From Desulfobaccales bacterium (GTDB lineage: Bacteria; Desulfobacterota; Desulfobaccia; Desulfobaccales; 0-14-0-80-60-11), in NCBI GenBank assembly GCA_036396255.1, contig DASWLF010000374.1:1-27821 (forward strand): a stretch of DNA of 27,821 nt. Reading direction: 5' to 3'. The notes under the pieces are model-generated. The model saw only the letters and a program-made list of their open reading frames with translations, did no database searches and had not been told where the DNA came from. Positions 6,562 through 22,828 of this stretch are shown in pieces (the stretch's first letter is position 1; every line of letters starts with the position of its first letter). A program made the position numbers and the translations under genes.

Positions 6562-6876
6562 TCAGGCCCCGGACGCGCCCAGGGAAGACTCCAGCCGGGC
6601 CAGCCGTTCGTCGAGCTTGGAGAAAGAATCGGCCAGGCCCGCCGGTTGAGGCTGGGAGGTGAAGGACGGATGGTTCACCCACCAGTCCATGCCCAGCTCC
6701 CTGGCTTTGTCCACCGAGCAGATGACCAGGCGGATCTGGATGGTTAAAAGCTCCACCTCCACCAGGCTTATCTTGATATCCCCGGCGATGACAATGCCCT
6801 TATCCAGGAGCCTTTCCAGGAGATCCGCCAGGTTGGTGCTCTCCAGCGAGTGCTGGGTGGCGCGTTGAATAGCCAT
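6562..6876 (-). CDS. gvpJ: GvpA/GvpJ-family minor gas vesicle protein (GvpA3-like)
   Basis: MAIQRATQHSLESTNLADLLERLLDKGIVIAGDIKISLVEVELL... ATG at 6876 with an AGGAGG SD. It is the C-terminal part of ORF-track entry 6562..7254. Confidence 0.88.
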   Translation of the reverse strand: MAIQRATQHSLESTNLADLLERLLDKGIVIAGDIKISLVEVELLTIQIRLVICSVDKARELGMDWWVNHPSFTSQPQPAGLADSFSKLDERLARLESSLGASGA

Positions 6877-6887
6877 TTGGGTCCTCC

Positions 6888-7247
6888 TTACCTGAGCTTT
6901 CCCAGGGGACCGAGGTCGATGTTCAAGTCCTCTTCCTCCAGGCCGAATTCCTGCCGGAGCCGTTCGATCTCCCGGGCCTGCCTCATCAGAGTGAGGCCGA
7001 GGCGCTCGATTTCCGCCTCGGTGAGGGTCCCGCCTTCGATGCGCCGGATTCCCTGCCGCTCCAGAAGCTCGTGCAGTAATTTTACGAGAGTCAGAACCAG
7101 CTGGGCCAGGCCGTTCTTGCCGTTGCCCTCCTCCAGGTTTAGGCGGGGGCCCCGGCCTCTGGGGGCGGTCAAATCCCGGCGGCCCTGCATTACCCTGGCA
7201 AAATCGCCCAGGGCCTGGGACTCCACGGCGGCCGGCGGCCCCTTCAT
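6888..7247 (-). CDS. gvpK: Gas vesicle protein GvpK
   Basis: GLAQLVLTLVKLLHELLERQGIRRIEGGTLTEAEIERLG...LNIDLGPLGKL is the GvpK signature. Confidence 0.92.
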   Translation of the reverse strand: MKGPPAAVESQALGDFARVMQGRRDLTAPRGRGPRLNLEEGNGKNGLAQLVLTLVKLLHELLERQGIRRIEGGTLTEAEIERLGLTLMRQAREIERLRQEFGLEEEDLNIDLGPLGKLR

Positions 7248-7465
7248 GGGTCAACTCCCAGGCAGCTGCCCATCTCCCCGGCGGACCTGAGCTCCCGGGC
7301 AGTATCCAGGGAACTCAGGATGAGCTGCAGCCCCAGGTAGATGAGATCGATATTGGCCACGGAAATCATCACTTCTCCCACGACTACCGCACCCTTGTTG
7401 AGGACCCGGTCCAGGGCCTCGCACAAAGAGACCCGCTCCAGATCATCCAGGAATGGGTCGGACAT
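7244..7465 (-). CDS. GvpA/GvpJ/GvpS-family minor gas vesicle protein (GvpA2-like)
   Basis: MSDPFLDDLERVSLCEALDRVLNKGAVVVGEVMISVANIDLIYLGLQL. ATG at 7465 with a GGGAGA SD. 4-nt overlap with gvpK. Confidence 0.85.
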   Translation of the reverse strand: MSDPFLDDLERVSLCEALDRVLNKGAVVVGEVMISVANIDLIYLGLQLILSSLDTARELRSAGEMGSCLGVDP

Positions 7466-9446
7466 AGGGTCTCCCGGAAGGGCAAGGCGAACCGGCCCCC
7501 TTCCGGCCCGGGCGGTCATAAAGGACGGGGCGCCGCCCCCGGGGCTGGTAGAGGTTTTGCCCCAGCCCGGCCAGGCGCTTAAGGCCCCGGGGTTCATCCT
7601 GCCGGTAGACCAGGGTCAGGTGCCGGTCCTTGAACTTTCGCAGGAACCGGGCCTTGACCTGGGCTTCCCTCAGATTCATGGCGGCACAAAGCGGACAGGG
7701 GGCGGCCGGGGTGGCCTGGTTGAGAAACAGCACCGGCGTCGGCAGACCCAGCCGCTGGCAGGCCGCCACCAGGTCTGCCGTCTCCCTGAAGGCCATTTCG
7801 GTGAGCCCGGCCACGACATAAACCGCGGTCCGGTCCGGGTCGCACCACAGCTTCCGGAGTCGCTTTAAGCCCTTGGAAATCCTTACCAGGCGCTGAGAGA
7901 ACCCCGGCATCCGAAAAGCCAACCTGTACTTCAAGAGCACGCCGAAAAAGCCCTTGAGCCACTGGTCCATGATCTCCGGCATTTCCAGGAGGCGGAGCAG
8001 GTGGCCGGTGGGGGCCGCATCCAGGACAAAAAGGTGGAACGGGCCTTGCTCCAGAAAGTCCAGGGTCCGGGTCAAGGCCATGATTTCGTCCAGGCCCGGG
8101 GGCGACAGCTCCAGAAGCTGCTCCAGCGCCCGGCGGTCAAAGGGCAGGTCGAAGCCGCGGCCCAATGGTTCCAGGAAGCGCTCCAGACCCTGGCGAAACT
8201 CCCTTTTGAGGGAGTCCAGTTCCCTGGCCGGGTCCATTTCCATGGCCATGAGAGCCGGCAGGACCCGGGTGGGTTCCGGGCCCAGGCGCATCTTCAGGCA
8301 GTCCGCCAGGGAATGAGCCGGGTCGGTGGAGACGAGCAGGATCTCCTGGCCTTTCAAGTCCTGGGCCAGGCGCAGCGCGGTGGCGCAAGCCAGGGTGGTC
8401 TTGCCCACTCCGCCTTTGCCGGCGAAAATCAGAAACCTGCTCTGGGAGGAGGGGAGAGCCGGGGCGTCCTCCACCCGGGGGGGAAGGGGGAAAATCCTGG
8501 GCGGGGCCGGGGCCTCGCCGGGCATAAGTCTGGCGGCGCTGCCCCAGAATTTCTCCAGAGACTTGCCCCGCACTTCCCACCGGTGCAGCGGCACCCCCCA
8601 GAGATCACATCCGGCCAGGGCCTCGGCGTCGGCAAGCCCCTGGATGATCCGGCGCTGGCGCCGGCGCGCCCCGGTGCACCCCGGGCAAGGGCTTTCGGGG
8701 ATGAGCCGGTTGATCACGATCTCGGAAACCGGCACCTGGAGCCGCTTGAGGGCCTGGAGAAGGTCCAGCGTCTCCTGGACCGCCATCTCCTCGGCCAGCA
8801 TCACCGGCACAAACCGGCAGCGGCCGGGGTCCTTAAGCAGGGCTTCCAGACGCTTTAGAGATTTGGCCAGATCCAGCAGGAAGGCGTCCACTTCATCGGC
8901 CGGGCACGCCCCGTTGAACCGCCTTCTCAGGAAGCGGTGCTTGGCCAGCAAGGTGTCCAGGACCCCCAGCCAGCGGCGGAGCAGCTCCGGCATGGTGAGC
9001 AGCCGCAGGGTGTGGCCGGTGGGGGCGGTGTCCACCACCAGGGTGTCGTATCTCCGGGCTGCCGCCGTCCGGGAGATCTCCAGCAGCGCCATGAGCTCGT
9101 CCAGGCCGGGCAGGGAAAGATCCAGGAAATGGCCCAAGTCCTCCTCGTCCAGAAAGGTGCCACGCAGGGCGATCTCCCGGAGCTTCTGGCGGTGCTCGGC
9201 CTGGAAAGCCGCCAGGGCGCCGCGGGCGTCCAACTCCAGGACGGTCAGGTTGGCAGGCGGGGTCAGGCCGGCGAGGCTGTCCCCCACGGAATGGGCCGGA
9301 TCAGTGGAGATGAGCAGAAAAGCGGCCCGGGGAGAGGAGCGGGCCAGCTGCAAGGCCGCGGCCGTGGCGCAGGTAGTCTTTCCCACCCCGCCTTTACCGC
9401 CGAAGAAGAGCAGCTTGAGGCCATGACCCTCCAAAAAAGTGAGCAT
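7443..9446 (-). CDS. Tandem two-domain ArsA/Get3-family ATPase
   Basis: Two copies each of GKGGVGKT, STDPAHS, PGLDE and D(T/A)APTGH, plus a C-terminal CxxC in each domain (CPGC, CPLC). Confidence 0.92.
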   Translation of the reverse strand: MLTFLEGHGLKLLFFGGKGGVGKTTCATAAALQLARSSPRAAFLLISTDPAHSVGDSLAGLTPPANLTVLELDARGALAAFQAEHRQKLREIALRGTFLDEEDLGHFLDLSLPGLDELMALLEISRTAAARRYDTLVVDTAPTGHTLRLLTMPELLRRWLGVLDTLLAKHRFLRRRFNGACPADEVDAFLLDLAKSLKRLEALLKDPGRCRFVPVMLAEEMAVQETLDLLQALKRLQVPVSEIVINRLIPESPCPGCTGARRRQRRIIQGLADAEALAGCDLWGVPLHRWEVRGKSLEKFWGSAARLMPGEAPAPPRIFPLPPRVEDAPALPSSQSRFLIFAGKGGVGKTTLACATALRLAQDLKGQEILLVSTDPAHSLADCLKMRLGPEPTRVLPALMAMEMDPARELDSLKREFRQGLERFLEPLGRGFDLPFDRRALEQLLELSPPGLDEIMALTRTLDFLEQGPFHLFVLDAAPTGHLLRLLEMPEIMDQWLKGFFGVLLKYRLAFRMPGFSQRLVRISKGLKRLRKLWCDPDRTAVYVVAGLTEMAFRETADLVAACQRLGLPTPVLFLNQATPAAPCPLCAAMNLREAQVKARFLRKFKDRHLTLVYRQDEPRGLKRLAGLGQNLYQPRGRRPVLYDRPGRKGAGSPCPSGRPYVRPIPG

Positions 9447-9635
9447 GTCGTCCCCATCAGATTCTGGTTTGAGAAGCCTGGGGCGCCATCCTCCAAGGCC
9501 TTCCCCCTAGTCACCGGGATTCAGGGGGGGCCGGAGGTGCCCCCGGCCAGGTGAGCGGCGCTGCCGCTCCGGGGTCGGGCCCCCTTTACCCCCCCTCGCA
9601 CCCTCATCCCCCTCGGTTTTCCCCTGCCCCGCCCG

Positions 9636-9875
9636 TCACTGACTCGCATCAGAGGGCTGCATCAGGTCCAGGCGGTCCAGCAGGATTTTCTCCCGGGCGT
9701 CGAACTCTTTTTCGGTAATCTGGCCGGTTTCCAGCCGCATATAGAGCTCGCTCAATTCGGCGGTTATGGCTTCCGAGGCCCCGGCCTGCTCCTCTTGGGC
9801 CGCGTTGTACACTTCTTTAAAAATCCAAAAAATGCCGCGGAAGGGAGCAGTCAGAAGGTCGTCGATGATCAGCAT
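9636..9875 (-). CDS. gvpG: Gas vesicle protein GvpG
   Basis: MLIIDDLLTAPFRGIFWIFKEV...LSELYMRLETGQITEKEFDAREKILLDRL. ATG at 9875 with an AAGGA SD. Confidence 0.9.
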   Translation of the reverse strand: MLIIDDLLTAPFRGIFWIFKEVYNAAQEEQAGASEAITAELSELYMRLETGQITEKEFDAREKILLDRLDLMQPSDASQ

Positions 9876-9901
9876 CTCATTTCCTTTATCGGCCGGGCGG
9901 C

Positions 9902-10657
9902 TCACAACTTGAGGTCCAGGTCCACAAAGTTGTGGGGGGCCCAGGGGCCGTTGTAGTCAAAGGCGAAATTGTTGTCAAAGAGCCGGGCCGCCTCGAAGAC
10001 GTCCGCCTCGAAGGCCGCCTCAGCCTCCCGGTCCACCAGGCAGGCCAGGTTCATGACTTCGGACTCCACCCGGCAGCGGTTGCGCTTGATCTCCCGGCAG
10101 GAGTGGGCCAGGGCCTCTTCCACCTGGGTGGTGTAGAGTTCCCGGTCCTCGTGCAGCAGGCGGTCAAAGAGGCGGCCCAGCTCCAGCTTGTCTTCCTGGG
10201 AGGGGTGCCGCTGGGGGCCCAGCAGCCGGTCCCGGGCGGCCCGCAGCCCCGTATGGGTGGTGACGAAATATTCGAAGATATTGGGAACGTCCCAGGAGAC
10301 CCGCAGCCCCATCTCCATCTTTCCGGCCACGCGCCCCAGTTGCTGGAGGAAAGCCTTCTGGTTGCGGGAGAGGATCCTCTTCACGGCTTTGGGCCCCTCG
10401 GCGATGATGCCGAAGGACATGGGAAGCATGGCCGGCGTGCCTTTCATCAGGCCCTGGAGGACGGTCTGCTGGGCCGCCAGATGACGGCGCTCCGGACGGA
10501 GCCGCTCCAGGGGGAGATCGCTGACCACCGCGGCCACTTTCCCATTGGTGATGGTGTAAACCGGTTTCCCTTCCAGGCCCTTAAAGGCATAAACCTGCTC
10601 CACCGGGCCGGGCACCACCGCGTATAGGTATCTGCCGCTTTTCGCTAGCTGGGTCAT
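9902..10657 (-). CDS. gvpF: GvpF/GvpL-family gas vesicle protein (GvpF1-like)
   Basis: GRYLYAVV..., MLPMSFGII, EMGLRVSW, MNLACLV and GPWAPHNFV. Confidence 0.92.
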   Translation of the reverse strand: MTQLAKSGRYLYAVVPGPVEQVYAFKGLEGKPVYTITNGKVAAVVSDLPLERLRPERRHLAAQQTVLQGLMKGTPAMLPMSFGIIAEGPKAVKRILSRNQKAFLQQLGRVAGKMEMGLRVSWDVPNIFEYFVTTHTGLRAARDRLLGPQRHPSQEDKLELGRLFDRLLHEDRELYTTQVEEALAHSCREIKRNRCRVESEVMNLACLVDREAEAAFEADVFEAARLFDNNFAFDYNGPWAPHNFVDLDLKL

Positions 10658-10752: not shown

Positions 10753-10947
10753 TCAGATGGCGGCGCCTTCGCCCCATACCCCTGGGCGGGGCACCATTTT
10801 CACAAATCTGACGGTTTTGAGATTGCCCTCTTCGGTCTTGATCTCCAGCAGGGCCGTGCATGCAAAGCACTTGACCTGCCCCTCGAAGTCATCGTAGGCG
10901 TCATCCAGGTCCACTTTGTGTCCGCAGGAAAGGCAGTTAATTCTCAT
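10753..10947 (-). CDS. Small Zn-ribbon protein (CxxC-x18-CxxC)
   Basis: MRINCLSCGHKVDLDDAYDDFEGQVKCFACTALLEI. GAGGAG SD. Tightly packed in the operon. Confidence 0.8.
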   Translation of the reverse strand: MRINCLSCGHKVDLDDAYDDFEGQVKCFACTALLEIKTEEGNLKTVRFVKMVPRPGVWGEGAAI

Positions 10948-10970
10948 GTTCTCTACTCCTCAGGAGGCCG

Positions 10971-11336
10971 TTAGACGATTCCCTGGCCCTTGCAGGCGTG
11001 GCAGTAAAAGATGCCGTCGGCGCCGGTGCCCCGACACCTGGGGCAGATCCTGGCTTCCGGGCGCACCGGCACCACTCCCTGGCCCCGGCAGGCCAGGCAG
11101 ACCAAATCCCCCGCGGCCCGTCCGGAGCCGGCGCACCGCCGGCAGGTAACGATGGGCGGTGCGGTCTTGATCTCCCCGGCCCCCCCGCAGACGGGACAGC
11201 CGGAGGCGCCGCCGTAGATGGGGTCCTCCCCGGTGCCGCGGCAGTAGGCGCAGGGCACCAGGTCCACGAACCGCATGAGCGTCGAGCCGCCGGCGTTAGG
11301 GCCGAATCGGCTCAGGACTTTCAGGGCATAACCCAT
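10971..11336 (-). CDS. Stand-alone DnaJ-type cysteine-rich Zn-finger protein (6 x CxxCxGxG, no J domain)
   Basis: CAYCRGTG, CPVCGGAG, CRRCAGSG, CLACRGQG, CPRCRGTG, CHACKGQG. Start is at ATG 11336 (MGYA) or 11276 (MRFV). The longer ORF-track call to 12113 overlaps other genes. Confidence 0.82.
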   Translation of the reverse strand: MGYALKVLSRFGPNAGGSTLMRFVDLVPCAYCRGTGEDPIYGGASGCPVCGGAGEIKTAPPIVTCRRCAGSGRAAGDLVCLACRGQGVVPVRPEARICPRCRGTGADGIFYCHACKGQGIV

Positions 11337-11880: not shown

Positions 11881-12858
11881 CTAAGCGGGGCCGGGGGGGG
11901 AGCCGTCGCAGACCGCGGCGATGACTTCGTCCACCTTGCCCCCCATGAGTGACTGTCCCGCCCGGGTGACCTTGGCGGTGTCGGCGTTGAGCACGTCCCG
12001 GCAGGCCCAGTGAAAGACGGGGTCGTGCAGCCGGGCCCGGCCCCCCCGGTGGGCCAGAATCCGGGCGATGGCGATGCAGGCCCGCACCGTGGGCCGGTGG
12101 TTGTTGACCCCAAAACCCCGGAGCTCCCGCACCACGTTCACGATGGCCTCGGCATCCGCCCGGCCAATGCCGGACCTGGCTATGGCGATCTGGACCTCGG
12201 TTTCCCGGTCGAAGTGGCCGAGAGCGACGGTGATGAGCCGGTCCAGGAGGGCGTCCTGGGTCTTGTGCACCCCGGCGTACTCCTCGGGATTGGAGGTGAA
12301 GATGGCCCGGAACTCCGGGTGCACTTCCAGGTAGCCGCCGCCGTTGCGGCTCATATTGGGGAGGTTGAGAATCCTTTCCTCCAGGATGCTGAGCAGGGCG
12401 TTGTTGGCCTCGGGGCGGGACCGGGTGAATTCGTCGTAGATGAGGGTATAGCCCTCCTTGCAGGCCGTGGTCAGGCGGTTGTCCATCCACAGCACATTCA
12501 TGGATTCTTCCGTCTTCAGGACGGAATGGATGAAATTGTCGATGAGCTTCTGTTTGCGGTAGCCGGCGTGCCGGCCCACCAGGTCGGAGCTGCCGAACTC
12601 GTCGTCCCCGTGGATCAGGGTGACGGGCCGCCGCAGCTGCGCCGCCACGTGGAAGGCCAGGGTCGTTTTCCCGGTCCCGGCGGAGCCGGCAAAGTGGACG
12701 GGGTAGCCCACCTCCAGATACGCCAGGGCCCGGTCGGTGAGCTCCTGGACATAGGGCGTATAGACAAATTCCGAACTGGCCTCGGGAGAAATCTGGTCCT
12801 CAGGGTCTGGAACGTTCACCGTGGCCGCGGACAACCTCCTTACCTTCTTACCACCCAT
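11881..12858 (-). CDS. gvpN: Gas vesicle AAA+ ATPase GvpN
   Basis: Walker A GSAGTGKT, LIYDEFTRSRPEANN, TSNPEEYAGVHKTQDALLDR. AGGAG SD. Confidence 0.96.
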   Translation of the reverse strand: MGGKKVRRLSAATVNVPDPEDQISPEASSEFVYTPYVQELTDRALAYLEVGYPVHFAGSAGTGKTTLAFHVAAQLRRPVTLIHGDDEFGSSDLVGRHAGYRKQKLIDNFIHSVLKTEESMNVLWMDNRLTTACKEGYTLIYDEFTRSRPEANNALLSILEERILNLPNMSRNGGGYLEVHPEFRAIFTSNPEEYAGVHKTQDALLDRLITVALGHFDRETEVQIAIARSGIGRADAEAIVNVVRELRGFGVNNHRPTVRACIAIARILAHRGGRARLHDPVFHWACRDVLNADTAKVTRAGQSLMGGKVDEVIAAVCDGSPPGPA

Positions 12859-13162
12859 GTATCAGCTCCTGTAACCTTGGTTTTTCCGGGCATTCGCTTC
12901 ACCCTGGCGGGGGGGCGCAGGCCCAGCCGCCCGCAGCCTCCGTCGAGAGCCTGGTACGGGCCCTGCCCATCCCTAACAACGGCAAATTGGCCGGTTTCCT
13001 TTAATACTTTTTTATCAGGGGCAGTCGGAATCAGGAAAGGAACCAACCACCCCACCGGCGCGGGTTCGGGGGCCCCCGGGCTGCCGTGGCCGGGGAACCT
13101 GCCGGAGTTCCGCCGGCCCGGGGCTGCCGGGAGTCCAGGCTGGGTTGCCTGGCCGCCCTGGC

Positions 13163-13588
13163 TTAGCCTTGGGGCTTTTTCCGATCCCGGCCGGCCGGAC
13201 GCTTCTTGGCGGCCGGCCCGCCGCCCGGTTTGCCTCCTTTGGCCGCAGGGCGCCTGGCAGCATCCCCGGTTTTCGGGGAGGTCTGCCGGACCGGTTCCCT
13301 GGCTGGCTTCGGCCCCTGGCTGGTGGCAGGCCCGAACCAGGCCCGGTGGGCGCCTTTCAGGTCCAGAAAGTTGTCCTGACGCAGGCCGGCCACCGACATC
13401 TTCAGATCCAATACCGCCTTGGCCCGCCCTTCCCTGGTCTCCCGGGACATCTGCTCGTGGGCCTGGCGGAACCCGGCCTTCAGTTGCGCCACAGTGCGCA
13501 CCAGGTCCTGCACGAAGGCCTGGCGCAGACCGCGCAGCGCCACAATCTCTCCGCATAACCGGGTCATGTCATCGGTTAAGGAACCCAT
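13163..13588 (-). CDS. gvpC: GvpC-like protein with a basic Pro/Ala/Gly-rich C-terminal tail
   Basis: MGSLTDDMTRL...DLKGAHRAWFG resembles proteobacterial GvpC termini as I recall them. Directly after gvpA. Confidence 0.7.
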   Translation of the reverse strand: MGSLTDDMTRLCGEIVALRGLRQAFVQDLVRTVAQLKAGFRQAHEQMSRETREGRAKAVLDLKMSVAGLRQDNFLDLKGAHRAWFGPATSQGPKPAREPVRQTSPKTGDAARRPAAKGGKPGGGPAAKKRPAGRDRKKPQG

Positions 13589-13620
13589 TTTTCACTCCTT
13601 GTGCATTCTCAAGGGGCCGG

Positions 13621-13683
13621 CCGGGGGCCTGCCTTGGTGCAGGCGCCCCGGAGTCCCCTGGAGGGAGGGGCCGGGCCCCTCCC
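13621..13683 (-). other. Two GC-rich stem-loops 3' of gvpA copy 2
   Basis: GGGAGGGGC/GCCCCTCCC (13663-13683) and a bulged stem at 13621-13651. No U-tract. Confidence 0.6.
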
Positions 13684-13708
13684 GGGAGAAGGATTAGGTC
13701 AGAATGCC

Positions 13709-13927
13709 TTAGGCCGGAGCCGCGGCGCTGGCCGTCAGGCCGATGGCTTCGGCGTACTTCAGGTAGGTCTCCACCGAGGCGATGACCACCCGGGCTTCGA
13801 TGGACAGCAGTTCGATGCCCACCAGCGCCACCTTGACCCAAGCGTCGATGACAATGCCCTTATCCAGGATGCGATCCACTACTTCCGCCAGGCTGGAGGA
13901 ATCGGTGGATTTCTGTACTTTGGCCAT
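13709..13927 (-). CDS. gvpA: Major gas vesicle structural protein GvpA, copy 2
   Basis: [55 protein letters not shown]. Confidence 0.98.
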
Positions 13928-13986
13928 GATCGGTCTCCTTTGCGATTTTGTGGCGGCGTTATCTCATCAGGGCGCTTCGGCCGGGC

Positions 13987-14250
13987 TCACTTGCCGCACC
14001 AGGCCCGGCGGGCCCCATCCAGGTCCGCAGCAAAGGCCTGCCGCAGGCCGGCCACGGTCTTCTTCAGATTGGCAAAATTCCTGGCCCGTTCCGACTTGCT
14101 TCTCCGGGCCATGTCATGGTGGTGGCGGCGCAAGGACGCCTTCAGGGTGGCCACGTCGCGGCGCAGGTGCTTGACAAAGGAATGTCGCGCCCCCCGCATG
14201 GCCACGATCTCTCCACACAACCGAGTCATATCGTCGGTTAAGTGACCCAT
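13987..14250 (-). CDS. gvpC: Short GvpC-like protein
   Basis: MGHLTDDMTRL...DLDGARRAWCGK. ATG at 14250 with an AAGGAG SD. 50/87 identical to the 13163-13588 product, ungapped. Confidence 0.7.
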   Translation of the reverse strand: MGHLTDDMTRLCGEIVAMRGARHSFVKHLRRDVATLKASLRRHHHDMARRSKSERARNFANLKKTVAGLRQAFAADLDGARRAWCGK

Positions 14251-14334
14251 AGGGTTTCTCCTTCTTCTCCGTCGTCGGTTTTTTCTGGCTGCCCCCAACC
14301 TCCCGGCCTCATTGCCGGGGCCGGGGATACCAGC

Positions 14335-14363
14335 CTTCCCGGGAGGGGTCGCCTCCCGGGAAG
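14335..14363 (-). other. 12-bp stem-loop 3' of gvpA copy 1
   Basis: CTTCCCGGGAGG-N5-CCTCCCGGGAAG, perfect. A second 6-bp stem lies at 14302-14319. No U-tract. Confidence 0.7.
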
Positions 14364-14370
14364 CGGTTCC

Positions 14371-14589
14371 TTACGCCGGAGCGGCTGCGCTGGCGGTGAG
14401 GCCGATGGCCTCGGCGTACTTCAGATAGGTCTCCACCGAGGCGATGACCACCCGGGCCTCAATGGACAGCAGTTCGATGCCCACCAACGCCACCTTGACC
14501 CAGGCATCGATGACGATGCCTTTATCCAGAATGCGATCCACTACTTCCGCCAGGCTGGAGGAATCCGTGGATTTCTGCACCTTTGCCAT
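14371..14589 (-). CDS. gvpA: Major gas vesicle structural protein GvpA, copy 1
   Basis: Protein identical to copy 2. GGAGG SD. Confidence 0.98.
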
Positions 14590-14650: not shown

Positions 14651-14666
14651 TCCAAGAACCATGCCA
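14651..14666 (-). promoter_or_regulatory. Sigma54-type (-24/-12) promoter of the gvpA operon
   Basis: Minus strand TGGCATGGTTCTTGGA gives GG-N10-GG, near the TGGCAC-N5-TTGC consensus but with G instead of C at -12. A GAFTGA activator is encoded in the cluster. Confidence 0.65.
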
Positions 14667-17467: not shown

Positions 17468-18387
17468 GGGTCGGTCTCCATGGTCAGGGAAGGAGAGAAG
17501 CTATACGGCGGCCAGGGGCCGGTGCATTCAAAGACCAGGCCGTAGGGGCTATGAAGGCGGTTGGCCGCTTCGATCCTGGCCTTGAAGCCGAAGGCGGCCG
17601 CCTTGGGAACCAGATAAGCCCAATTCAGAATCATTTCCTGGCCGCTGCCGTTGCCGCCCCGGTCCGAGAGCCGCCCCTGGGCCCAGTGCAGGGCGCAATC
17701 CTGAAGCGCCGCGCCCAACTCCTGGCAGACTTCCCGGAGCCAGCGGGGAAGCTCCCGCTCGGCCACCCGCCGCAGACGCTGTTCCTCCAGGTATCTCCGG
17801 CCGGCCGGCAGACCATCCAGGCGGTCCCCTTCCTGGGCCAGCCGCTGGGCCAGGTGCGCTTCCAGGGCCAGGGCCCTGGTCAGCAACCCCTTGACCGCCC
17901 ATTCCTCCTGGTCCGCCACCCGGTCCAGGAACCGGGCCACCGTATCGTGGTGGACCCGTAAGAGCTGCTCCAGCCTTTCCCGGCAGGTGAACAGGGTGCC
18001 GAACCGGGCCGGCAACACCGGAGAGTTACGCATCACCGCCTCCACCACCTCCTGGTGGCGGCAGGCCCGGGGGCCCACCCAGGATAGGTCTTGCAAGTGG
18101 TGGGCGGCTTCCGGCCCGCAGAACTCCTCCAGAGGAACCTCGCAATAGATAGCCGCGAGATCCCCCAAACTCGCCAGACACAAAGGGCGCCCGTCCAGGC
18201 CGGCTCCCGGCAGGGGCGGCAGGAGGCTCAAACGGGCCAGGCAAAAGAGGTAAAGGCCGGAAGCTATCCCAGGGGTTTCAGGGATATTTTTTTCGCCTTT
18301 TCGCCTTTTCGCCTTTTGCCCCGAGGCACTTGGCGGAAAAGAGATTTGTTTATCCAAAGTTAGTCCCCTATCCAGGGCGGGGCTCAC
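17464..18387 (-). CDS. GvpF/GvpL-family protein (GvpF2-like)
   Basis: GLYLFCL, VLPARFGTLF, EEWAVK, LNWAYLV and GPWPPYSF. Start is GTG 18387 (GTGA overlap) or TTG 18357. Confidence 0.9.
   Translation of the reverse strand: MSPALDRGLTLDKQISFPPSASGQKAKRRKGEKNIPETPGIASGLYLFCLARLSLLPPLPGAGLDGRPLCLASLGDLAAIYCEVPLEEFCGPEAAHHLQDLSWVGPRACRHQEVVEAVMRNSPVLPARFGTLFTCRERLEQLLRVHHDTVARFLDRVADQEEWAVKGLLTRALALEAHLAQRLAQEGDRLDGLPAGRRYLEEQRLRRVAERELPRWLREVCQELGAALQDCALHWAQGRLSDRGGNGSGQEMILNWAYLVPKAAAFGFKARIEAANRLHSPYGLVFECTGPWPPYSFSPSLTMETDP
18290..18320. repeat. Octamer tandem repeat (TTTTCGCC)x3 + TTTTGCC inside the gvpF/L 5' coding region
   Basis: Units at 18290, 18298 and 18306, then a 7-nt variant at 18314. 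Confidence 0.85.
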
Positions 18388-20510
18388 TCCTGGCGCAACG
18401 CCTCCAGGGCCTTTTCCAGGTCCGGGGGGGTGATGAGCACCTGGCCCGGTTTTTTGCCCGGTCCTTTGCTCAGGGCCCGGCGCACCGCGCTCAGGGCCGC
18501 CTGGTTGCAGACCGAGGCGATTTCCGCGCCGCTGAACCCCTCGGTCCTGGCGGCCAGGGCCGCGGCGTCGATCCCCGGGGCCAGGGGTTTGCCCCGGAGG
18601 TGCACCTTGAAGATTTCCCGGCGGTCCTCTTCCTGGGCCGGGGGGATCTCCACGATCTCATCGAAGCGCCCCGGCCGGAGCACCGCGGGGTCCAGGATGT
18701 CCAGGCGGTTGGTGGCCCCCAGCACCAGCACCCCCTTCAGTTCCTCGATGCCGTCCAGCTCCGCCAGGAACTGGCTCAGGACCCGCTCGCTGACGTGGGA
18801 GTCGCCGGAGCCCACGCCCCGCATGGGCAGGAGGGCGTCGATCTCGTCCAGAAAAATAATGCACGGGGCCGCCTGCCGGGCCTTGCGGAAGATTTCCCGC
18901 ACCCCCCGCTCGGACTCCCCCACGTATTTGGAGAGCAGCGCCGGCCCCTTCACCGAGATGAAATTCACCCGGGACTCGTTGGCGATGGCCTTGGCCAACA
19001 GCGTCTTGCCGCAGCCCGGCGGGCCGGACAGGAGGATCCCCTTGGGGGGTTTGATCCCCGCCTCCTTGAAGAGATGGGCATACTGCAAGGGCCACTCCAC
19101 CGCCTCTTTCAGACGGTCCTTCACCCACTTGAGGCCGCCCACGTCCCGCCAGTAGACATCGGGCACCTCCACGAAGACCTCCCGGATGGCCGAGGGCTCC
19201 ACCTCCCGCAGGGCCCCCAGGAAGTCATCCATGTGCACCTCCAGCTTGGCCAGCTGCTCGTAAGGGATGGTGGTCAGGGAGAAATCGATGTCCGGCATGA
19301 GGCGGCGCAGGCAAATCATGGCGGCTTCCCGGCACAGGGCCTCCAGGTCGGCTCCCACGAAACCGTGGGTGATTTCCGCCAGGTGGCTCATGTCCACGTC
19401 CTCGGACAGGGGCATGCCCCGGCTGTGGATCTCCAGGACCTCCAGGCGGCCGTGGCGGTCGGGAATGGGGATGGCGATCTCCCGGTCAAAGCGCCCGGGG
19501 CGGCGCAGGGCCGGGTCCAGGATGTTGGGCAGATTGGTGGCGGCGATGACGATGACGTTCTGGCGCTTGGTGAGGCCGTCCATTAAAGCCAGGAGCTGGG
19601 CCACCACCCGTTTTTCCACGTCCCCCAACACGGTCTCCCGCCGGGGGGCGATGGAATCTATTTCGTCTATGAAGATGATACTGGGGCCCTTGCGGGAGGC
19701 CTCCTCGAAGATCTTGCGCAGGTGGGCCTCGGACTCGCCGTAAAACTTGTGCACCACCTCGGGGCCGCTCACCGAGAAGAAGTTGGCCTCCGTCTCCTGG
19801 GCGATGGCCCGGGCGATGAGGGTCTTGCCGCACCCCGGGGGGCCGTGCAGCAGAACGCCTTTGGGGGCGTCGATGCCCAGCCGCTGAAAGACCTCCGGGT
19901 AACGCAAGGGCAGCTCGATCATCTCCCGGATGCGCTGGAGTTGGGGCTTGAGGCCGCCGATGTCTTCGTAGGCCACCGCCGAGGTCGCCCGCACGCCCTC
20001 CTGGGGCTGGGCCTTGCCGATGACCAGAGTGGTGGTGGGGTTGATCAGCACCGGCCCCTTGGGGGTCAGCCGCTCCACCTTGAAGTCGGCCCAGCGGCTG
20101 CCGAACAGGGTGGCCCGGATACGGTCCCCCTCCAGCACCGGCAGCCCGTCCAGGAGGCTGCCGATGTACTTCAGGTCCCGGTCCTGGGGGGTGATGGTCA
20201 GCGGCGTCAGCACCACCCGCTCCGCCCCCCGGCAGGCGATTCTGCGGACCTGGACGTATTCGTCCAGGCCGGCGCCGGCGTTCTCCCGGCTGAGGCCGTC
20301 CAGCTGCACCCGGGACTGGCCCCGGAGCTCCTTATAGGCCGGCATGGCCTTGCACACCGCCCGGCGCTTCCCCGCCACCTCCACCAGGTCGCCGATGGCC
20401 ACCCCCAATTTTTCCAGGTCTTCGGGCCCCATGCGGGCAAAGGCCCGGCCCACGTCCTTGCTCAGGGCCTCCGTCACCTTCAGCTTGCCCGTTGCCTCCG
20501 GTTTCTTCAA
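18384..20510 (-). CDS. cdc48: CDC48/VCP-family AAA+ ATPase (GvpZ-like by synteny)
   Basis: N-domain (VGRAFARMGPEDL...VQLDG), D1 GPPGCGKT/IFIDEID, D2 GPPGCGKT/IFLDEID, and LRPGRFD twice. TTG start with a G-rich SD. Confidence 0.95.
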   Translation of the reverse strand: MKKPEATGKLKVTEALSKDVGRAFARMGPEDLEKLGVAIGDLVEVAGKRRAVCKAMPAYKELRGQSRVQLDGLSRENAGAGLDEYVQVRRIACRGAERVVLTPLTITPQDRDLKYIGSLLDGLPVLEGDRIRATLFGSRWADFKVERLTPKGPVLINPTTTLVIGKAQPQEGVRATSAVAYEDIGGLKPQLQRIREMIELPLRYPEVFQRLGIDAPKGVLLHGPPGCGKTLIARAIAQETEANFFSVSGPEVVHKFYGESEAHLRKIFEEASRKGPSIIFIDEIDSIAPRRETVLGDVEKRVVAQLLALMDGLTKRQNVIVIAATNLPNILDPALRRPGRFDREIAIPIPDRHGRLEVLEIHSRGMPLSEDVDMSHLAEITHGFVGADLEALCREAAMICLRRLMPDIDFSLTTIPYEQLAKLEVHMDDFLGALREVEPSAIREVFVEVPDVYWRDVGGLKWVKDRLKEAVEWPLQYAHLFKEAGIKPPKGILLSGPPGCGKTLLAKAIANESRVNFISVKGPALLSKYVGESERGVREIFRKARQAAPCIIFLDEIDALLPMRGVGSGDSHVSERVLSQFLAELDGIEELKGVLVLGATNRLDILDPAVLRPGRFDEIVEIPPAQEEDRREIFKVHLRGKPLAPGIDAAALAARTEGFSGAEIASVCNQAALSAVRRALSKGPGKKPGQVLITPPDLEKALEALRQE

Positions 20511-20916: not shown

Positions 20917-21435
20917 TCACCCCACGCACTTGATCTCCAGGATGCCGTTGTTGCAGGAGACCTTCATGCGGTCCCGGGGGTAGGCCCGGGGCAGGAGGAT
21001 CTCCTTGCGGTATTTCTTGTCGCCCCGGGCGGCGTGGATGGTCAGCAGGTCGTCTTTGACGTCCAGGCGCACCTCCTTGAGGCTGACGCCCGGGATTTCC
21101 GCCACCACCAGGGTGTAGCCCTTTTCTTCGAAGACATCCACCACGGGCTCCCGGATCTCCTGGACCGTGGTCTCGCCCGAGCCGGCATCCTGGCGCACGT
21201 TGCCGAAGGGCTCCACCTTGAACTCCTTGTCGCCCTTGTCCCCCAGGCCCACCTTCACGGTGAAGCCGTAAACGCCCTTGAGGTCCTTGCTCTCGCCCCG
21301 GATCTCCCCGCTTTTGGAGAGGGTCTCCCCCTTGTCGGCCAGCTCCCCCAGTTTCTCCACCAGGTCCGCCAGCCCCTTGAAGATTCCACCGAAGCTGTAT
21401 CCTGACTCCCCACCCTTCACTTTTCTGTTGGTCAT
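20917..21435 (-). CDS. Hsp20/alpha-crystallin small heat shock protein (GvpH-like)
   Basis: VYGFTVKVG...EPFGNV...IREPVVDVFEE...VVAEIPGV...YRKEILLP...CNNGILEIK. Confidence 0.9.
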   Translation of the reverse strand: MTNRKVKGGESGYSFGGIFKGLADLVEKLGELADKGETLSKSGEIRGESKDLKGVYGFTVKVGLGDKGDKEFKVEPFGNVRQDAGSGETTVQEIREPVVDVFEEKGYTLVVAEIPGVSLKEVRLDVKDDLLTIHAARGDKKYRKEILLPRAYPRDRMKVSCNNGILEIKCVG

Positions 21436-21448
21436 GAGTTCCTCCAGG

Positions 21449-22828
21449 CTAAATGATGCCGAATTGCTTCACCTTGGTGTGCATGGTCTTGTAATCTATC
21501 TGTAGCAGCCGGGCCGCCTTGGCCTTGTTGCCCCCGGTAAACTTGAGGACCTGGGCCAGGACTTCCTTCTCCACCGTGAAGACGCTCTGGCGCACGATCT
21601 CCCTGAGGGGCAATTCTCGCCAGGGGGTGCCCTGGACCTTGGGGGTGAAGGCCAGGCCAGGCACCGAGGCCCGCTTGATGTCCAGGTGTTTCTCGGTAAT
21701 GACGTCGTCGGCCATCAGGACCGCCCGGCGGATGATGGATCTGAGCTGGCGCACGTTTCCCGGCCAGGCGTAAGCGAACATGGCCTCCAGGCAGGACTCG
21801 GAGAACTTCGTCACGTTCTTTCGCAACTCCTGGTTGGTGATGTCCAGGAACCGCTTGGCCAGATAGGGGATGTCCTCTTTGCGCTCCCTCAGGGGCGGCA
21901 ACTGGATGGTGAACTCGTTTAAGCGGAAATAGAGGTCCCGGCGCATCAGACCCGATTCCACCAGGGTTTGCAGCTCCTGGTTGGTGGCCACCAGGACCCG
22001 GACGTCGATGGAGGTGGGTCTGGTGGTCCCCAGCTGGTAGACCACCCGGTCTTGCAGGGCCCGCAGCAACTTGGCCTGGGAGGCCAGGGACAGATTGGAG
22101 ATTTCGTCCAGGAACAGGGTCCCGCCCTGGGCCGCGGCGAACTTGCCGGGCTTGGGCAGCACCGCGCCGGTGAAGGCCCCCTTCTGGTAGCCGAAGAGTT
22201 CGCTCTCCAGCAAGGTCTCGGGAATGGCGCCGCAATCCACCGGGACAAAGACCTTTGGGTCCCGGCGGCTCAGCCGGTGTACGGCCCGGGCCACCAGCTC
22301 CTTGCCGGCGCCGGTCTCCCCCTGGATCACCACGCTGAAATCGGACCCGGCCACCCGGTTGACCTCGAAGATGATGCGGCTCACCGCATCGCTGGGACCC
22401 ATCATTTCCCGGAGGTCGGCGTCCGGCTGCTTCCGGGGGCGGCTGGTGAAACCCTGCCGCTGGGCCAGGGCCCGGCGCACCACCCGGGCTACCTGGGGGT
22501 GCTCGAAGGGTTTGGGCAGGTAATCGTAGGCGCCGGCCTTGATGGCTGCCACCGAGCCGGAGATGTCGGCATGGGCGGTGATCATCACCACCGGCAGTCC
22601 GGTGTCCATTTCTTTAACCCGGCGCAACACCTCCATGCCGTCCATGCCGGGCATCTTGAGGTCCAGCAGCAGGGCGTCGGGCCTGGCGCTCCCAATCATT
22701 TCCAGGGCGGTCTCGCCGTCGTGGGCGATCTGGCTCAGGAGCCCTTCTCCTTGCATGAGTCTGGAAAGCATCAAACAGATGTCCCGGTCGTCATCGACGA
22801 TGAGAATGCGGCGGCGGTGCGGTTCCAT
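21449..22828 (-). CDS. NtrC-family sigma54-dependent response regulator (GvrA-like by synteny)
   Basis: Receiver (LLDLKMPG, LPKPF), GETGAGKE, ESELFGYQKGAFTGA, LFLDEI, WPGNVRQL and a Fis-type HTH (GGNKAKAARLLQI). Confidence 0.95.
   Translation of the reverse strand: MEPHRRRILIVDDDRDICLMLSRLMQGEGLLSQIAHDGETALEMIGSARPDALLLDLKMPGMDGMEVLRRVKEMDTGLPVVMITAHADISGSVAAIKAGAYDYLPKPFEHPQVARVVRRALAQRQGFTSRPRKQPDADLREMMGPSDAVSRIIFEVNRVAGSDFSVVIQGETGAGKELVARAVHRLSRRDPKVFVPVDCGAIPETLLESELFGYQKGAFTGAVLPKPGKFAAAQGGTLFLDEISNLSLASQAKLLRALQDRVVYQLGTTRPTSIDVRVLVATNQELQTLVESGLMRRDLYFRLNEFTIQLPPLRERKEDIPYLAKRFLDITNQELRKNVTKFSESCLEAMFAYAWPGNVRQLRSIIRRAVLMADDVITEKHLDIKRASVPGLAFTPKVQGTPWRELPLREIVRQSVFTVEKEVLAQVLKFTGGNKAKAARLLQIDYKTMHTKVKQFGII

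What the first reader, a model, noticed from the sequence alone, without database searches (positions are those of the whole stretch)
7443..9446. The ArsA annotation hides a fused Get3/TRC40-like pseudo-dimer
Seen: both domains have PGLDE where E. coli ArsA has its metalloid-binding GACTTE/SPCTEE cysteines. Both also carry a C-terminal CxxC (CPGC, CPLC), and no arsB/arsC/arsR is nearby. Established: Get3/TRC40 dimers are held by a Zn bound by one CxxC from each subunit. Inference: a single-chain, asymmetric Get3-like chaperone for Gvp subunits. It occupies the position of Serratia gvpW; orthology is unchecked.
Basis: partly seen in the sequence, partly recalled or inferred. Interest (0 to 1): 0.68.

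Follow-up and report, generated by a model that had tools for sequence, protein, structure and literature searches.

The report
Get3-like double ATPase in gas-vesicle operon
A gene annotated as an arsenic-pump ATPase inside this bacterium's gas-vesicle operon is really two fused copies of a Get3-type chaperone ATPase that most likely handles the very hydrophobic vesicle-shell proteins; the protein type (2019) and its gas-vesicle link (2010) were already published separately, and its function has never been tested.

Summary
Window 7443-9446 (minus strand) encodes a 667-aa protein made of two ArsA/Get3-family halves. Each half has an intact P-loop and switch I/II. Each has PGLDE where E. coli ArsA has its metalloid cysteines, and a CxxC that aligns with the zinc-binding CxxC of solved Get3/TRC40 proteins. 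It misses NCBI's ArsA model (179 bits against a 650 cut-off). Its halves score higher against archaeal Get3 than against ArsA. In a tree it lies outside the ArsA clade, so its fusion arose independently of ArsA's. It sits between gvpG and a gvpA-family gene in a Serratia-type gas-vesicle cluster, and the window holds no ars genes. Homologues lie co-directionally inside gvp operons in about 65 of 80 fetched loci from more than 12 phyla. The two CxxC motifs are kept or lost together (246 both, 44 neither, 9 discordant).

Little of this is new. Castillo & Saier (2010) described two-domain ArsA homologues without the cysteines in gvp operons. Farkas et al. (2019) described tandem bacterial Get3 homologues with CxxC. 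This scan has reported the same thing at least eight times on other genomes.

The chaperone role for Gvp proteins is inference from synteny and homology. Orthology with GvpW is not supported: cyanobacterial GvpW is a separate GvpL/F-like gene.

The parts
7443..9446 (-). Whole ORF, 667 aa: fused two-domain Get3/ArsA-family ATPase (P0001)
   Evidence: Pfam ArsA_ATPase 363 bits in 2 stretches. TIGR00345 GET3_arsA_TRC40 359 bits (cut-off 135), but ArsA equivalog TIGR04291 179.5 bits against a 650 cut-off.
8532..9446 (-). N-terminal Get3-like half (aa 1-305)
   Evidence: PDB per half: M. thermautotrophicus TRC40 3zq6 144 bits, human ASNA1 128, ArsA 102-114 summed over two stretches. AF2 pLDDT mostly above 90.
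8445..8531 (-). Pro-rich inter-domain linker (aa 306-334), low conservation
   Evidence: pLDDT dips to 66 in the block aa 311-320. Sequence RLMPGEAPAPPRIFPLPPRVEDAPALPSS. In a same-genus genome the gene is split into two overlapping frames here.
7527..8444 (-). C-terminal Get3-like half (aa 335-640)
   Evidence: PDB: M. jannaschii Get3 3ug6 137 bits, 3zq6 135, ArsA 115-119 over two stretches. 39.6% identical to the N half over 268 aa.
9375..9398 (-). P-loop 1, GKGGVGKT (deviant Walker A)
8397..8420 (-). P-loop 2, GKGGVGKT
9288..9308 (-). Switch I, half 1, STDPAHS
   Evidence: S47, D49 and S53 are invariant in 90 sequences.
8310..8330 (-). Switch I, half 2, STDPAHS
9096..9110 (-). PGLDE 1, at the position of ArsA GACTTE (Cys113)
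   Evidence: Alignment; coordinates.
8085..8099 (-). PGLDE 2, at the position of ArsA SPCTEE (Cys422)
9012..9032 (-). Switch II, half 1, DTAPTGH, followed by a long amphipathic helix pair (aa 143-205, Get3-insert region)
   Evidence: ArsA lacks about 20 residues here.
8001..8021 (-). Switch II, half 2, DAAPTGH, followed by amphipathic helices aa 480-534
8676..8687 (-). CxxC 1 (CPGC, aa 254-257), putative half of a Zn(Cys)4 site
   Evidence: Aligns with the CKMC of Get3 7ru9. C254 and C257 are invariant in the 38 close homologues of alignment A1. The motif is at the equivalent position in all 121 close homologues.
7686..7697 (-). CxxC 2 (CPLC, aa 584-587), putative other half of the Zn site
   Evidence: Aligns with the CDFC of 3ug6 and the CEFC of 3zq6. 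C584 and C587 are invariant. It is kept or lost together with CxxC 1.
7443..7526 (-). Unconserved C-terminal tail (aa 641-667) and stop; overlaps the start of the next gene by 23 nt
   Evidence: pLDDT below 50 for aa 646-667.
9636..9905 (-). gvpG, the immediately upstream gene (189-nt G-rich spacer before the ATPase start)
   Evidence: Pfam GvpG 62.6 bits.
9902..10657 (-). gvpF1 (GvpL/GvpF family)
   Evidence: Pfam 210 bits
7244..7465 (-). gvpA-family gene (GvpJ/S/A2-like, 73 aa), immediately downstream; most hydrophobic segment in the operon together with GvpA
   Evidence: Pfam Gas_vesicle. Start refined. KD19 1.90.
6888..7247 (-). gvpK
   Evidence: Pfam GvpK 105.9 bits
6562..6876 (-). Second gvpA-family gene (GvpJ/A3-like)
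   Evidence: Pfam Gas_vesicle 64 bits
11881..12858 (-). gvpN (AAA_5 ATPase)
14371..14589 (-). gvpA copy 1 (72 aa); an identical copy 2 lies at 13709-13927
18384..20510 (-). Cdc48-type double AAA+ ATPase (GvpZ position); in other phyla it is often directly adjacent to the Get3-like gene
   Evidence: TIGR01243 879 bits; synteny.
20917..21435 (-). GvpH/Hsp20-like small heat-shock protein

Best explanation
The gene encodes a single-chain pseudo-dimer of two Get3/TRC40-type SIMIBI ATPase domains. Its lineage is dedicated to gas-vesicle (GV) gene clusters. Most likely both nucleotide sites, at the interface of the halves, drive an open/closed cycle as in Get3. The two CxxC motifs would jointly bind one zinc ion at the pseudo-dimer hinge. 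The amphipathic helices that follow switch II in each half would form a composite hydrophobic groove. That groove would transiently shield the aggregation-prone hydrophobic segments of GvpA-family proteins (GvpA, GvpJ/S-like), or other Gvp assembly proteins, and hand them to the growing vesicle. It would work alongside the cluster's other proteostasis genes (GvpN, the Cdc48-like GvpZ, the Hsp20-like GvpH, a DnaJ-type zinc-finger protein). Shown here: domain architecture, motifs, non-ArsA identity, independent fusion, a high-confidence Get3/ArsA fold, and conserved embedding in gvp operons. Inferred only: zinc binding, the groove, the identity of the client, and ATP-driven delivery.
For: Family identity: TIGR00345 scores 359 bits, while the ArsA equivalog scores 179.5 against a 650 cut-off. 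The best PDB sequence hits are fused Chlamydomonas ARSA1 and archaeal and eukaryotic Get3, ahead of ArsA.
Motifs: PGLDE replaces the ArsA cysteine motifs, and ArsA lacks about 20 residues of the post-switch-II helical segment. The CxxC motifs align with the CxxC of Get3 and TRC40.
Structure: the AF2 model has pLDDT 89.8 and pTM 0.89. It superposes over both halves on closed ArsA (TMt 0.78) and per half on M. thermautotrophicus TRC40 (TMt 0.79-0.82).
Tree: ArsA A1+A2 form a 100/100 clade. The gvp-linked proteins form their own clade (90/97), made of single-domain forms, all N halves (98/89) and all C halves (99/96).
Synteny: about 65 of 80 loci in more than 12 phyla have gvpA/J/F/N/G on the same strand around the gene. 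The recurrent order is A-N-F-G-[ATPase]-J-J.
CxxC pattern: both or neither in 290 of 299 complete fused homologues.
Helices: conserved i/i+3/i+4 hydrophobic periodicity.
Candidate clients: GvpA and GvpJ-like proteins carry the most hydrophobic 19-mers of the cluster.
Gene coupling: a 23-nt overlap with the downstream gvpA-family gene.
Literature: Farkas et al. 2019 predict a hydrophobic groove and a chaperone role for this class. Castillo & Saier 2010 propose that it energises a GV biogenesis step.
Against: There are no experimental data for any member. GV clusters without this gene (Bacillus megaterium, Halobacterium, and the Anabaena flos-aquae gene set gvpA plus gvpNJKFGWV) still make vesicles, including in mammalian cells (PMC10344784). 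So at best it is an accessory factor. The cluster encodes no tail-anchored protein and no Get1/2-like receptor. The helices are not Met-rich, unlike eukaryotic Get3. Cyanobacterial, Gemmatimonadota and some Planctomycetota members lack CxxC altogether, so the zinc site is not essential to the family's function.
Confidence: 0.6

Rival explanations
1. It is a genuine ArsA: the catalytic subunit of an arsenite or antimonite efflux pump, as annotated.
For: It has the two-domain architecture and a Pfam ArsA_ATPase hit. The best full-length Foldseek hits are ArsA structures, because they are among the few fused chains in the PDB. Many homologues are auto-named 'arsenite-transporting ATPase'.
Against: None of Cys113/172/422 is present; PGLDE replaces two of those motifs. 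The TIGR04291 equivalog scores 179.5 against a 650 cut-off. It lies outside the 100/100 ArsA clade. The window has no arsB, acr3, arsD, arsR or arsC. No Acr3 was found in the genome, and only a weak ArsB-family hit lies on another contig.
Confidence: 0.02
2. It is a general bacterial Get3-like factor that targets tail-anchored or other membrane proteins, or a general cytosolic holdase. Its place in the gvp cluster would be incidental.
For: Farkas et al. 2019 discuss TA-protein biogenesis or general chaperoning for tandem bacterial Get3 homologues. Some family members (Myxococcaceae loci L058, L062, L065, L082 and several cyanobacterial loci) have no structural gvp gene within 10 kb.
Against: Co-directional embedding in gvp operons across more than 12 phyla is far beyond chance. 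The gene is patchy among relatives (8 of 40), as expected for an accessory GV gene rather than a housekeeping chaperone. The genome has two other single-domain Get3/ArsA-family genes that could serve general roles. No Get1/2-type receptor is known in bacteria.
Confidence: 0.1
3. It is a redox- or metal-switched holdase. The Zn(Cys)4 centre is not needed for dimerisation in a fused protein. It is kept as an oxidant-sensitive switch (as reported for yeast Get3) that couples GV assembly to oxygen or oxidative stress.
For: The four cysteines are kept or lost together, although covalent fusion makes a dimerisation clamp redundant; Farkas et al. make this argument for ArsA. Yeast Get3 acts as a general chaperone under specific conditions (cited). 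GV formation in Serratia is oxygen-regulated (PMC6617781 abstract). The host is probably an anaerobic Desulfobacterota MAG (names).
Against: This is pure inference. CxxC-less members sit in equally conserved gvp contexts in cyanobacteria and Gemmatimonadota. The zinc could simply act as a mechanical hinge.
Confidence: 0.12
4. It is an ATP-driven remodelling or positioning factor. Like other SIMIBI/ParA-type ATPases, it would act on assembled vesicles or on the nucleation complex (GvpF/G/J/K), or feed substrates to the Cdc48-like GvpZ, rather than chaperone monomers.
For: It belongs to the SIMIBI class. It is often directly adjacent to the Cdc48-like GvpZ and Hsp20-like GvpH genes in Bacteroidota, Chlorobiota, Planctomycetota, Bacillota, cyanobacteria and even Myxococcota. 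The flanking genes here, gvpG and gvpF, encode nucleation-type proteins.
Against: No ParA-like DNA- or membrane-binding element is evident. The fold and the helical subdomain are those of client-binding Get3.
Confidence: 0.1

Closest known systems
Two-domain ArsA homologues encoded in gvp operons (Castillo & Saier 2010, PMC2963123, phylogenetic Clusters 4 and 6; e.g. Geobacter uraniireducens Gur2, Nostoc PCC 7120, Microcystis)
   Same: Proteins of about 640 aa with two domains, lacking ArsA Cys113/172/422. They are encoded among gvpF/G/J/K/L/N genes with hsp20 and without arsR, and were proposed to energise a step of GV biogenesis. The window protein is a new deltaproteobacterial-type member.
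   Different: That paper did not note the CxxC motifs or the Get3-like helical insert. It framed the proteins as ArsA homologues that may energise transporters.
Tandem bacterial Get3 homologues, 'Group 8' (Myxococcales and some Proteobacteria) and 'Group 7' (Cyanobacteria) of Farkas, De Laurentiis & Schwappach 2019 (PMC6593721)
   Same: Double Get3 domains in one chain, a TRC40-insert and predicted hydrophobic groove in both halves, and (Group 8) a CxxC in both halves. Cyanobacterial members lack CxxC, as I found independently.
   Different: That paper makes no link to gas vesicles. It lists only 17 Group 8 sequences, whereas this search finds more than 150 clusters at 50% identity in more than 12 phyla.
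Archaeal Get3/TRC40 (M. jannaschii 3ug6/3ug7; M. thermautotrophicus 3zq6)
   Same: These are the best single-domain sequence and fold matches to each half (135-144 bits; TMt 0.79-0.82; about 31% identity), with CxxC at the aligned position.
   Different: They are homodimers or tetramers of single-domain chains, are housekeeping genes, and are not gvp-linked.
Chlamydomonas reinhardtii ARSA1 (5zme/5zmf), a fused Get3 homologue that targets tail-anchored proteins to the chloroplast
   Same: It is the top PDB sequence hit (198 bits) and is also a single-chain pseudo-dimer with Get3-type PG[LV]DE motifs.
   Different: It has no CxxC in either half (alignment), is eukaryotic, and has membrane tail-anchored clients.
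E. coli / R773 ArsA (1f48) and L. ferriphilum ArsA (9nbw)
   Same: Fused two-domain SIMIBI ATPases. The full-length AF2 model superposes best on closed ArsA (TMt 0.78).
   Different: ArsA has the three metalloid-binding cysteines, a shorter helical region, no CxxC and ars operon context. Its duplication is a separate event.
GvpW (Microcystis/Anabaena; name reused in Serratia sp. ATCC 39006)
   Same: In Serratia, gvpW occupies the slot between gvpG and gvpA2, where this gene lies.
   Different: Cyanobacterial GvpW is a protein of about 229 aa in the GvpL/GvpF family, encoded next to the fused ATPase as a separate gene (L045:5391-6080; PMC2963123; PMC11267810). The window protein has no GvpL_GvpF domain. 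Same position does not mean orthology.

Membership tests
ArsA arsenite-pump ATPase (NCBIfam TIGR04291 equivalog) | Metalloid-binding cysteines equivalent to E. coli Cys113, Cys172 and Cys422 | tested here: not met
   In the alignment with E. coli ArsA (L089), PGLDE replaces GACTTE and SPCTEE, and there is no Cys at the C172-equivalent region.
ArsA arsenite-pump ATPase (NCBIfam TIGR04291 equivalog) | Score above the curated equivalog cut-off | tested here: not met
   179.5 bits against a 650 cut-off; haloarchaeal ArsA model 166.7 against 800.
ArsA arsenite-pump ATPase (NCBIfam TIGR04291 equivalog) | Operon with arsB/acr3, arsD, arsR | tested here: not met
   None in the window. No Acr3 in the genome, and only a weak ArsB-family hit on another contig (genome 81% complete).
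ArsA arsenite-pump ATPase (NCBIfam TIGR04291 equivalog) | Groups with characterised ArsA in a phylogeny | tested here: not met
   The ArsA halves (E. coli, Halobacterium) form a 100/100 clade that excludes all gvp-linked sequences.
ArsA arsenite-pump ATPase (NCBIfam TIGR04291 equivalog) | As(III)/Sb(III)-stimulated ATPase activity; confers resistance | not testable with these tools
   Needs biochemistry or genetics.
Get3/TRC40/ArsA superfamily (TIGR00345; Pfam PF02374) | Deviant Walker A GKGGVGKT, switch I (STDPAHS) and switch II (DTAPTGH) | tested here: met
   Present in both halves. TIGR00345 scores 186 and 177.5 bits per half against a 135 cut-off.
Get3/TRC40-type chaperones (as opposed to ArsA) | Extended helical subdomain (TRC40-insert region) that forms a hydrophobic client groove | tested here: inconclusive
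   The segment after switch II is about 20 residues longer than in ArsA. It is predicted as long helices with conserved amphipathic periodicity. The groove surface could not be inspected because no coordinates were available. Farkas et al. 2019 score this class as 'groove/insert: yes'.
Get3/TRC40-type chaperones (as opposed to ArsA) | CxxC motif at the dimer interface that coordinates zinc | tested here: met
   The motif is present in both halves and aligns with the CxxC of 7ru9, 3ug6 and 3zq6. It is conserved and kept or lost in pairs. Actual zinc binding cannot be tested here.
Get3/TRC40-type chaperones (as opposed to ArsA) | Binds tail-anchored clients and Get1/2/4-type partners | not testable with these tools
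   No TA-like protein is encoded in the cluster. Farkas et al. list Get1/2/4-binding residues as absent in Group 8; I did not re-test this.
Tandem bacterial Get3 homologues with CxxC (Farkas et al. 2019, Group 8) | Two Get3 domains in one chain, an insert in both, a CxxC in both, bacterial origin | tested here: met
   class description.
gvp-operon-linked two-domain ArsA homologues (Castillo & Saier 2010, Clusters 4/6) | About 600-680 aa, two domains, lacks the three ArsA cysteines, encoded within a gvp gene cluster | tested here: met
   667 aa, between gvpG and a gvpA-family gene. The same context holds in about 65 of 80 related loci.
GvpW | GvpL/GvpF-related protein of about 230 aa | tested here: not met
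   The window protein has no GvpL_GvpF domain. The Dolichospermum GvpW-type gene (229 aa, PF06386 82 bits) is separate from and adjacent to the fused ATPase.

The most novel reading that the evidence does not exclude
Gas-vesicle clusters across bacteria carry their own GET-like delivery pathway. A zinc-hinged, single-chain Get3 would capture newly made GvpA-family proteins in a hydrophobic groove and deliver them, by ATP hydrolysis, to the growing protein shell rather than to a lipid membrane. This would be a Get3-type machine working on a non-membrane organelle. The Zn(Cys)4 centre might also act as a redox switch tying vesicle assembly to oxygen.
Probability: 0.3. Interest if true: 0.7.

Novelty: new member of a known kind. 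Interest (0 to 1): 0.35.

Why it matters
Gas vesicles are used as acoustic reporter genes, and how their extremely hydrophobic shell protein is kept soluble and inserted into the growing wall is still unclear. A conserved Get3-type ATPase in gvp operons of more than a dozen phyla is an obvious but untested candidate for that step. It could improve heterologous vesicle production. It would also extend Get3 biology from membrane insertion to assembly of a protein-only organelle. It shows as well that 'arsenite-transporting ATPase' annotations in gvp clusters are wrong. As a discovery it is limited: both halves of the picture are already published, and this scan has found it repeatedly.

Tried and rejected
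1. True ArsA was rejected on cysteines, the NCBIfam cut-off, the tree and the context.

2. Named eukaryotic or archaeal Get3 sequences could not be imported for the tree. As stand-ins I used four unnamed single-domain archaeal homologues from the phylum of L030. Their PDB profile matches 3zq6/3ug6. They lack CxxC, and their sister position to the gvp-linked clade has weak support (81/33). So 'closer to Get3 than to ArsA' rests mainly on PDB bit scores and motifs.

3. The search of protein representatives with the N half returned only fused family members in its top 150. This shows the family's size, but it gave no Get3 references.

4. Serratia GvpW could not be fetched.

5. Zinc-site geometry and the groove surface could not be measured, because the AF2 coordinates are not exposed.

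6. I looked for a tail-anchored client in the cluster and found none. The only strongly hydrophobic 19-mers are in GvpA and the GvpJ-like proteins.

7. A sigma-54 promoter scan gave fewer matches than chance overall. One site upstream of gvpA is only suggestive.

8. ORFs 'u90' and 'u238' (13569-13841, 12840-13556), and the long N-terminal extensions of the GvpJ2 and Zn-finger ORFs, are out-of-frame shadows of real genes in GC-rich DNA.
Full report
**What is there.** The finding's coordinates are exact, but the gene is on the minus strand. Window 7443-9446 encodes a 667-aa protein, P0001. It consists of two homologous halves, 39.6% identical over 268 aa, joined by a Pro-rich linker.
- Each half has a deviant Walker A P-loop GKGGVGKT (aa 17, 343) and a switch I STDPAHS.
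- Each has a switch II (DTAPTGH, DAAPTGH) and a PGLDE (aa 113, 450).
- Each has a CxxC about 240 residues after its P-loop: CPGC at aa 254 and CPLC at aa 584.

Pfam gives ArsA_ATPase (363 bits, two stretches).

**Not a true ArsA.**
- NCBIfam places the protein in the broad TRC40/GET3/ArsA subfamily (TIGR00345, 359 bits against a 135 cut-off). It fails the ArsA equivalog badly (TIGR04291, 179.5 against 650).
- I fetched a bona fide ArsA from an E. coli plasmid ars operon (arsR-arsD-arsA; L089) and one from Halobacterium (L090).
- In the alignment, LSLPGLDE and LSPPGLDE sit exactly on ArsA's LSGACTTE (Cys113) and LRSPCTEE (Cys422).
- The Cys172 region corresponds to a segment where the window protein has about 20 extra helical residues.
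- No ars gene lies in the window. Elsewhere in the 81%-complete MAG there is only a weak ArsB-family hit on another contig and no Acr3.

**Get3-like features.**
- Per-half phmmer against PDB sequences ranks fused Chlamydomonas ARSA1 first, then archaeal Get3/TRC40. 3zq6 scores 144 and 135 bits; 3ug6 scores 123 and 137. ArsA reaches only 102-119 bits when both of its domains are summed.
- The N-half CxxC aligns with the CKMC of a solved Get3 (7ru9). The C-half CxxC aligns with the CDFC of M. jannaschii Get3 and the CEFC of M. thermautotrophicus TRC40. In Get3 these motifs from two subunits bind one zinc ion (stated in PMC6593721).
- An AlphaFold2 model built on a 90-sequence alignment is confident (pLDDT 89.8, pTM 0.89). 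It superposes over both halves on closed ArsA (TMt 0.78) and per half on TRC40 (TMt 0.79-0.82).
- The helices after switch II (aa 143-205 and 480-534) show conserved amphipathic periodicity. This fits a Get3-type client groove but does not prove one.

**Phylogeny.** A careful ML tree had 69 rows. It included the N and C halves of 24 fused proteins, 11 single-domain gvp-linked proteins, the ArsA halves, four archaeal single-domain homologues and the genome's own two paralogues.
- ArsA A1+A2 form a 100/100 clade, with A1 and A2 splitting inside it.
- All gvp-linked sequences form a separate clade (90/97). It contains a single-domain clade (82/70), all N halves (98/89) and all C halves (99/96).
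- So the duplication and fusion in the gas-vesicle lineage is ancient, happened once, and is independent of ArsA's.
- The archaeal stand-ins are sister to the gvp-linked clade only weakly (81/33).

**Context.** The window carries a Serratia-type gas-vesicle cluster on the minus strand. In order it reads:
- a sigma-54 activator, GvpH/Hsp20, a Cdc48-type double AAA+ ATPase (the GvpZ slot), two GvpF/L genes, a histidine kinase and a response regulator;
- then two identical gvpA copies, each followed by a small paralogous helical protein;
- then gvpN, a DnaJ-type zinc-finger mini-protein, a 64-aa zinc ribbon, gvpF and gvpG;
- then the fused ATPase, a gvpA-family gene (7244-7465, overlapping the ATPase stop by 23 nt), gvpK (6888-7247) and another gvpA-family gene (6562-6876).

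**Generality.**
- A scan of species-representative genomes returned 80 loci from more than 12 phyla.
- tblastn with the window's own Gvp proteins shows gvp genes on the same strand around the ATPase gene in about 65 of them.
- The recurrent architectures are A-N-F-G-[ATPase]-J-J, F-[ATPase]-F-J-F-J-A, and A-N-J-H-[single-domain ATPase]-Z-F-F.
- The family is large: more than 150 clusters at 50% identity score better than 1e-82.
- It is patchy among this MAG's relatives (8 of 40), as expected for an accessory GV gene.

**CxxC distribution.**
- All 121 close homologues have both motifs.
- Among 299 complete fused homologues, 246 have both, 44 have neither and 9 are discordant, some of those because of indels.
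- Cyanobacterial, Gemmatimonadota and some Planctomycetota members have none.
- Single-domain forms in Bacteroidota, Pirellulales and Bacillota have one; Chlorobiaceae forms have none.
- Joint retention and joint loss argue that the four cysteines form one site. The site is dispensable in some lineages.

**GvpW.** The gene occupies the slot of Serratia gvpW. In Dolichospermum, however, the GvpW-type gene is a 229-aa GvpL/GvpF-family protein located immediately upstream of the fused ATPase. This agrees with the literature. Orthology is therefore not supported. Serratia's own sequence could not be fetched.

**Prior knowledge.**
- Castillo & Saier 2010 (PMC2963123) described two-domain ArsA homologues without the three cysteines in gvp operons of four phyla, including a Geobacter protein. 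They proposed that these energise GV biogenesis.
- Farkas et al. 2019 (PMC6593721) described tandem bacterial Get3 homologues with a TRC40-insert in both halves and, except in cyanobacteria, a CxxC. They called them unique and of unknown function, and did not mention gas vesicles.
- No paper in the library contains both 'gas vesicle' and 'Get3'.
- Earlier reports of this scan reached the same conclusion on at least eight other genomes.

**Verdict.**
- The structural reading (a Get3-like fused pseudo-dimer, not ArsA) is well supported.
- The functional reading (an ATP-driven chaperone or delivery factor for hydrophobic Gvp proteins) is the best explanation (about 0.6) but is untested. The gene is likely accessory, since clusters without it still make vesicles.
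- It is a new member of a known kind.

Noticed in passing
window 13163-14589 (minus strand): A tandem duplication of a two-gene unit. Two identical 72-aa gvpA copies (14371-14589 and 13709-13927) are each followed by a paralogous small helical protein (13987-14250, 87 aa; 13163-13588, 141 aa; both start MG[HS]LTDDMTRLCGEIVA). That small protein has no Pfam hit, yet it is conserved beside gvpA in many loci of other phyla. It may be a GvpC analogue.
   Followed up: partly
window 10753-11276 (minus strand): Two small zinc-binding proteins lie between gvpN and gvpF1, in the slot of Serratia gvpV. One is a 101-aa DnaJ-type CxxCxGxG zinc-finger protein (10971-11276), conserved in L025, L028 and L087. 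The other is a 64-aa zinc-ribbon protein (10753-10947), conserved in L012, L021, L024, L025 and L069. A stand-alone DnaJ zinc-finger domain would be a further chaperone-like part of the cluster.
   Followed up: partly
window 22844-23485 (minus strand): A 213-aa ORF upstream of the sigma-54 activator has no Pfam family. It is conserved (33-49% identity) next to gvp clusters in Acidobacteriota, Gammaproteobacteria and Planctomycetota loci (L054, L036, L022, L069, L076, L088). It is an uncharacterised gvp-linked protein.
   Followed up: partly
G000 contig C57:11578-13536 (L001/L002): The same genome has two adjacent single-domain Get3/ArsA-family genes (about 337 and 331 aa; TIGR00345 228 and 212 bits). 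They lack both CxxC and PGxDE and branch outside the ArsA and gvp-linked clades. They may form a heterodimeric housekeeping Get3-like pair.
   Followed up: partly
L025:9914-11988 and G044:C15:182145-184126; also L024: In a same-genus genome (72% identity) the gene is read as two overlapping ORFs that break in the linker, each with its own P-loop, PGLDE and CxxC. This is either a natural un-fusion or a frameshift error in a long-read MAG.
   Followed up: no
loci L056, L068, L071, L078, L084, L087, L043, L045, L049, L062, L065: In Bacteroidota, Chlorobiota, Planctomycetota, Bacillota and cyanobacteria the Get3-like gene is directly next to the Cdc48-type GvpZ gene, often with Hsp20/GvpH on its other side. 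In two Myxococcota loci this pairing persists with no structural gvp gene within 10 kb. It hints at a Get3-like/Cdc48-like functional module.
   Followed up: partly
window 9447-9635 (minus strand): The 189-nt spacer between gvpG and the ATPase start is strikingly G-rich on the mRNA strand, with many GGGG/GGGGG runs. Other junctions in the operon overlap or abut. It could be a structured or regulatory element.
   Followed up: no
window 14651-14666 (minus strand): A sigma-54-like -24/-12 element (TGGCATGGTTCTTGGA, 2 mismatches) lies about 60 nt upstream of gvpA copy 1, in a cluster that encodes a sigma-54 activator (21449-22828). The pattern is not enriched in the window overall.
   Followed up: no
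L030 (Candidatus Altiarchaeota MAG contig, 4.2 kb): A fused homologue with CxxC (38% identity) sits beside a gvpN-like gene on a contig binned as archaeal. This is either horizontal transfer of the gvp module into an archaeon or a binning error.
   Followed up: no
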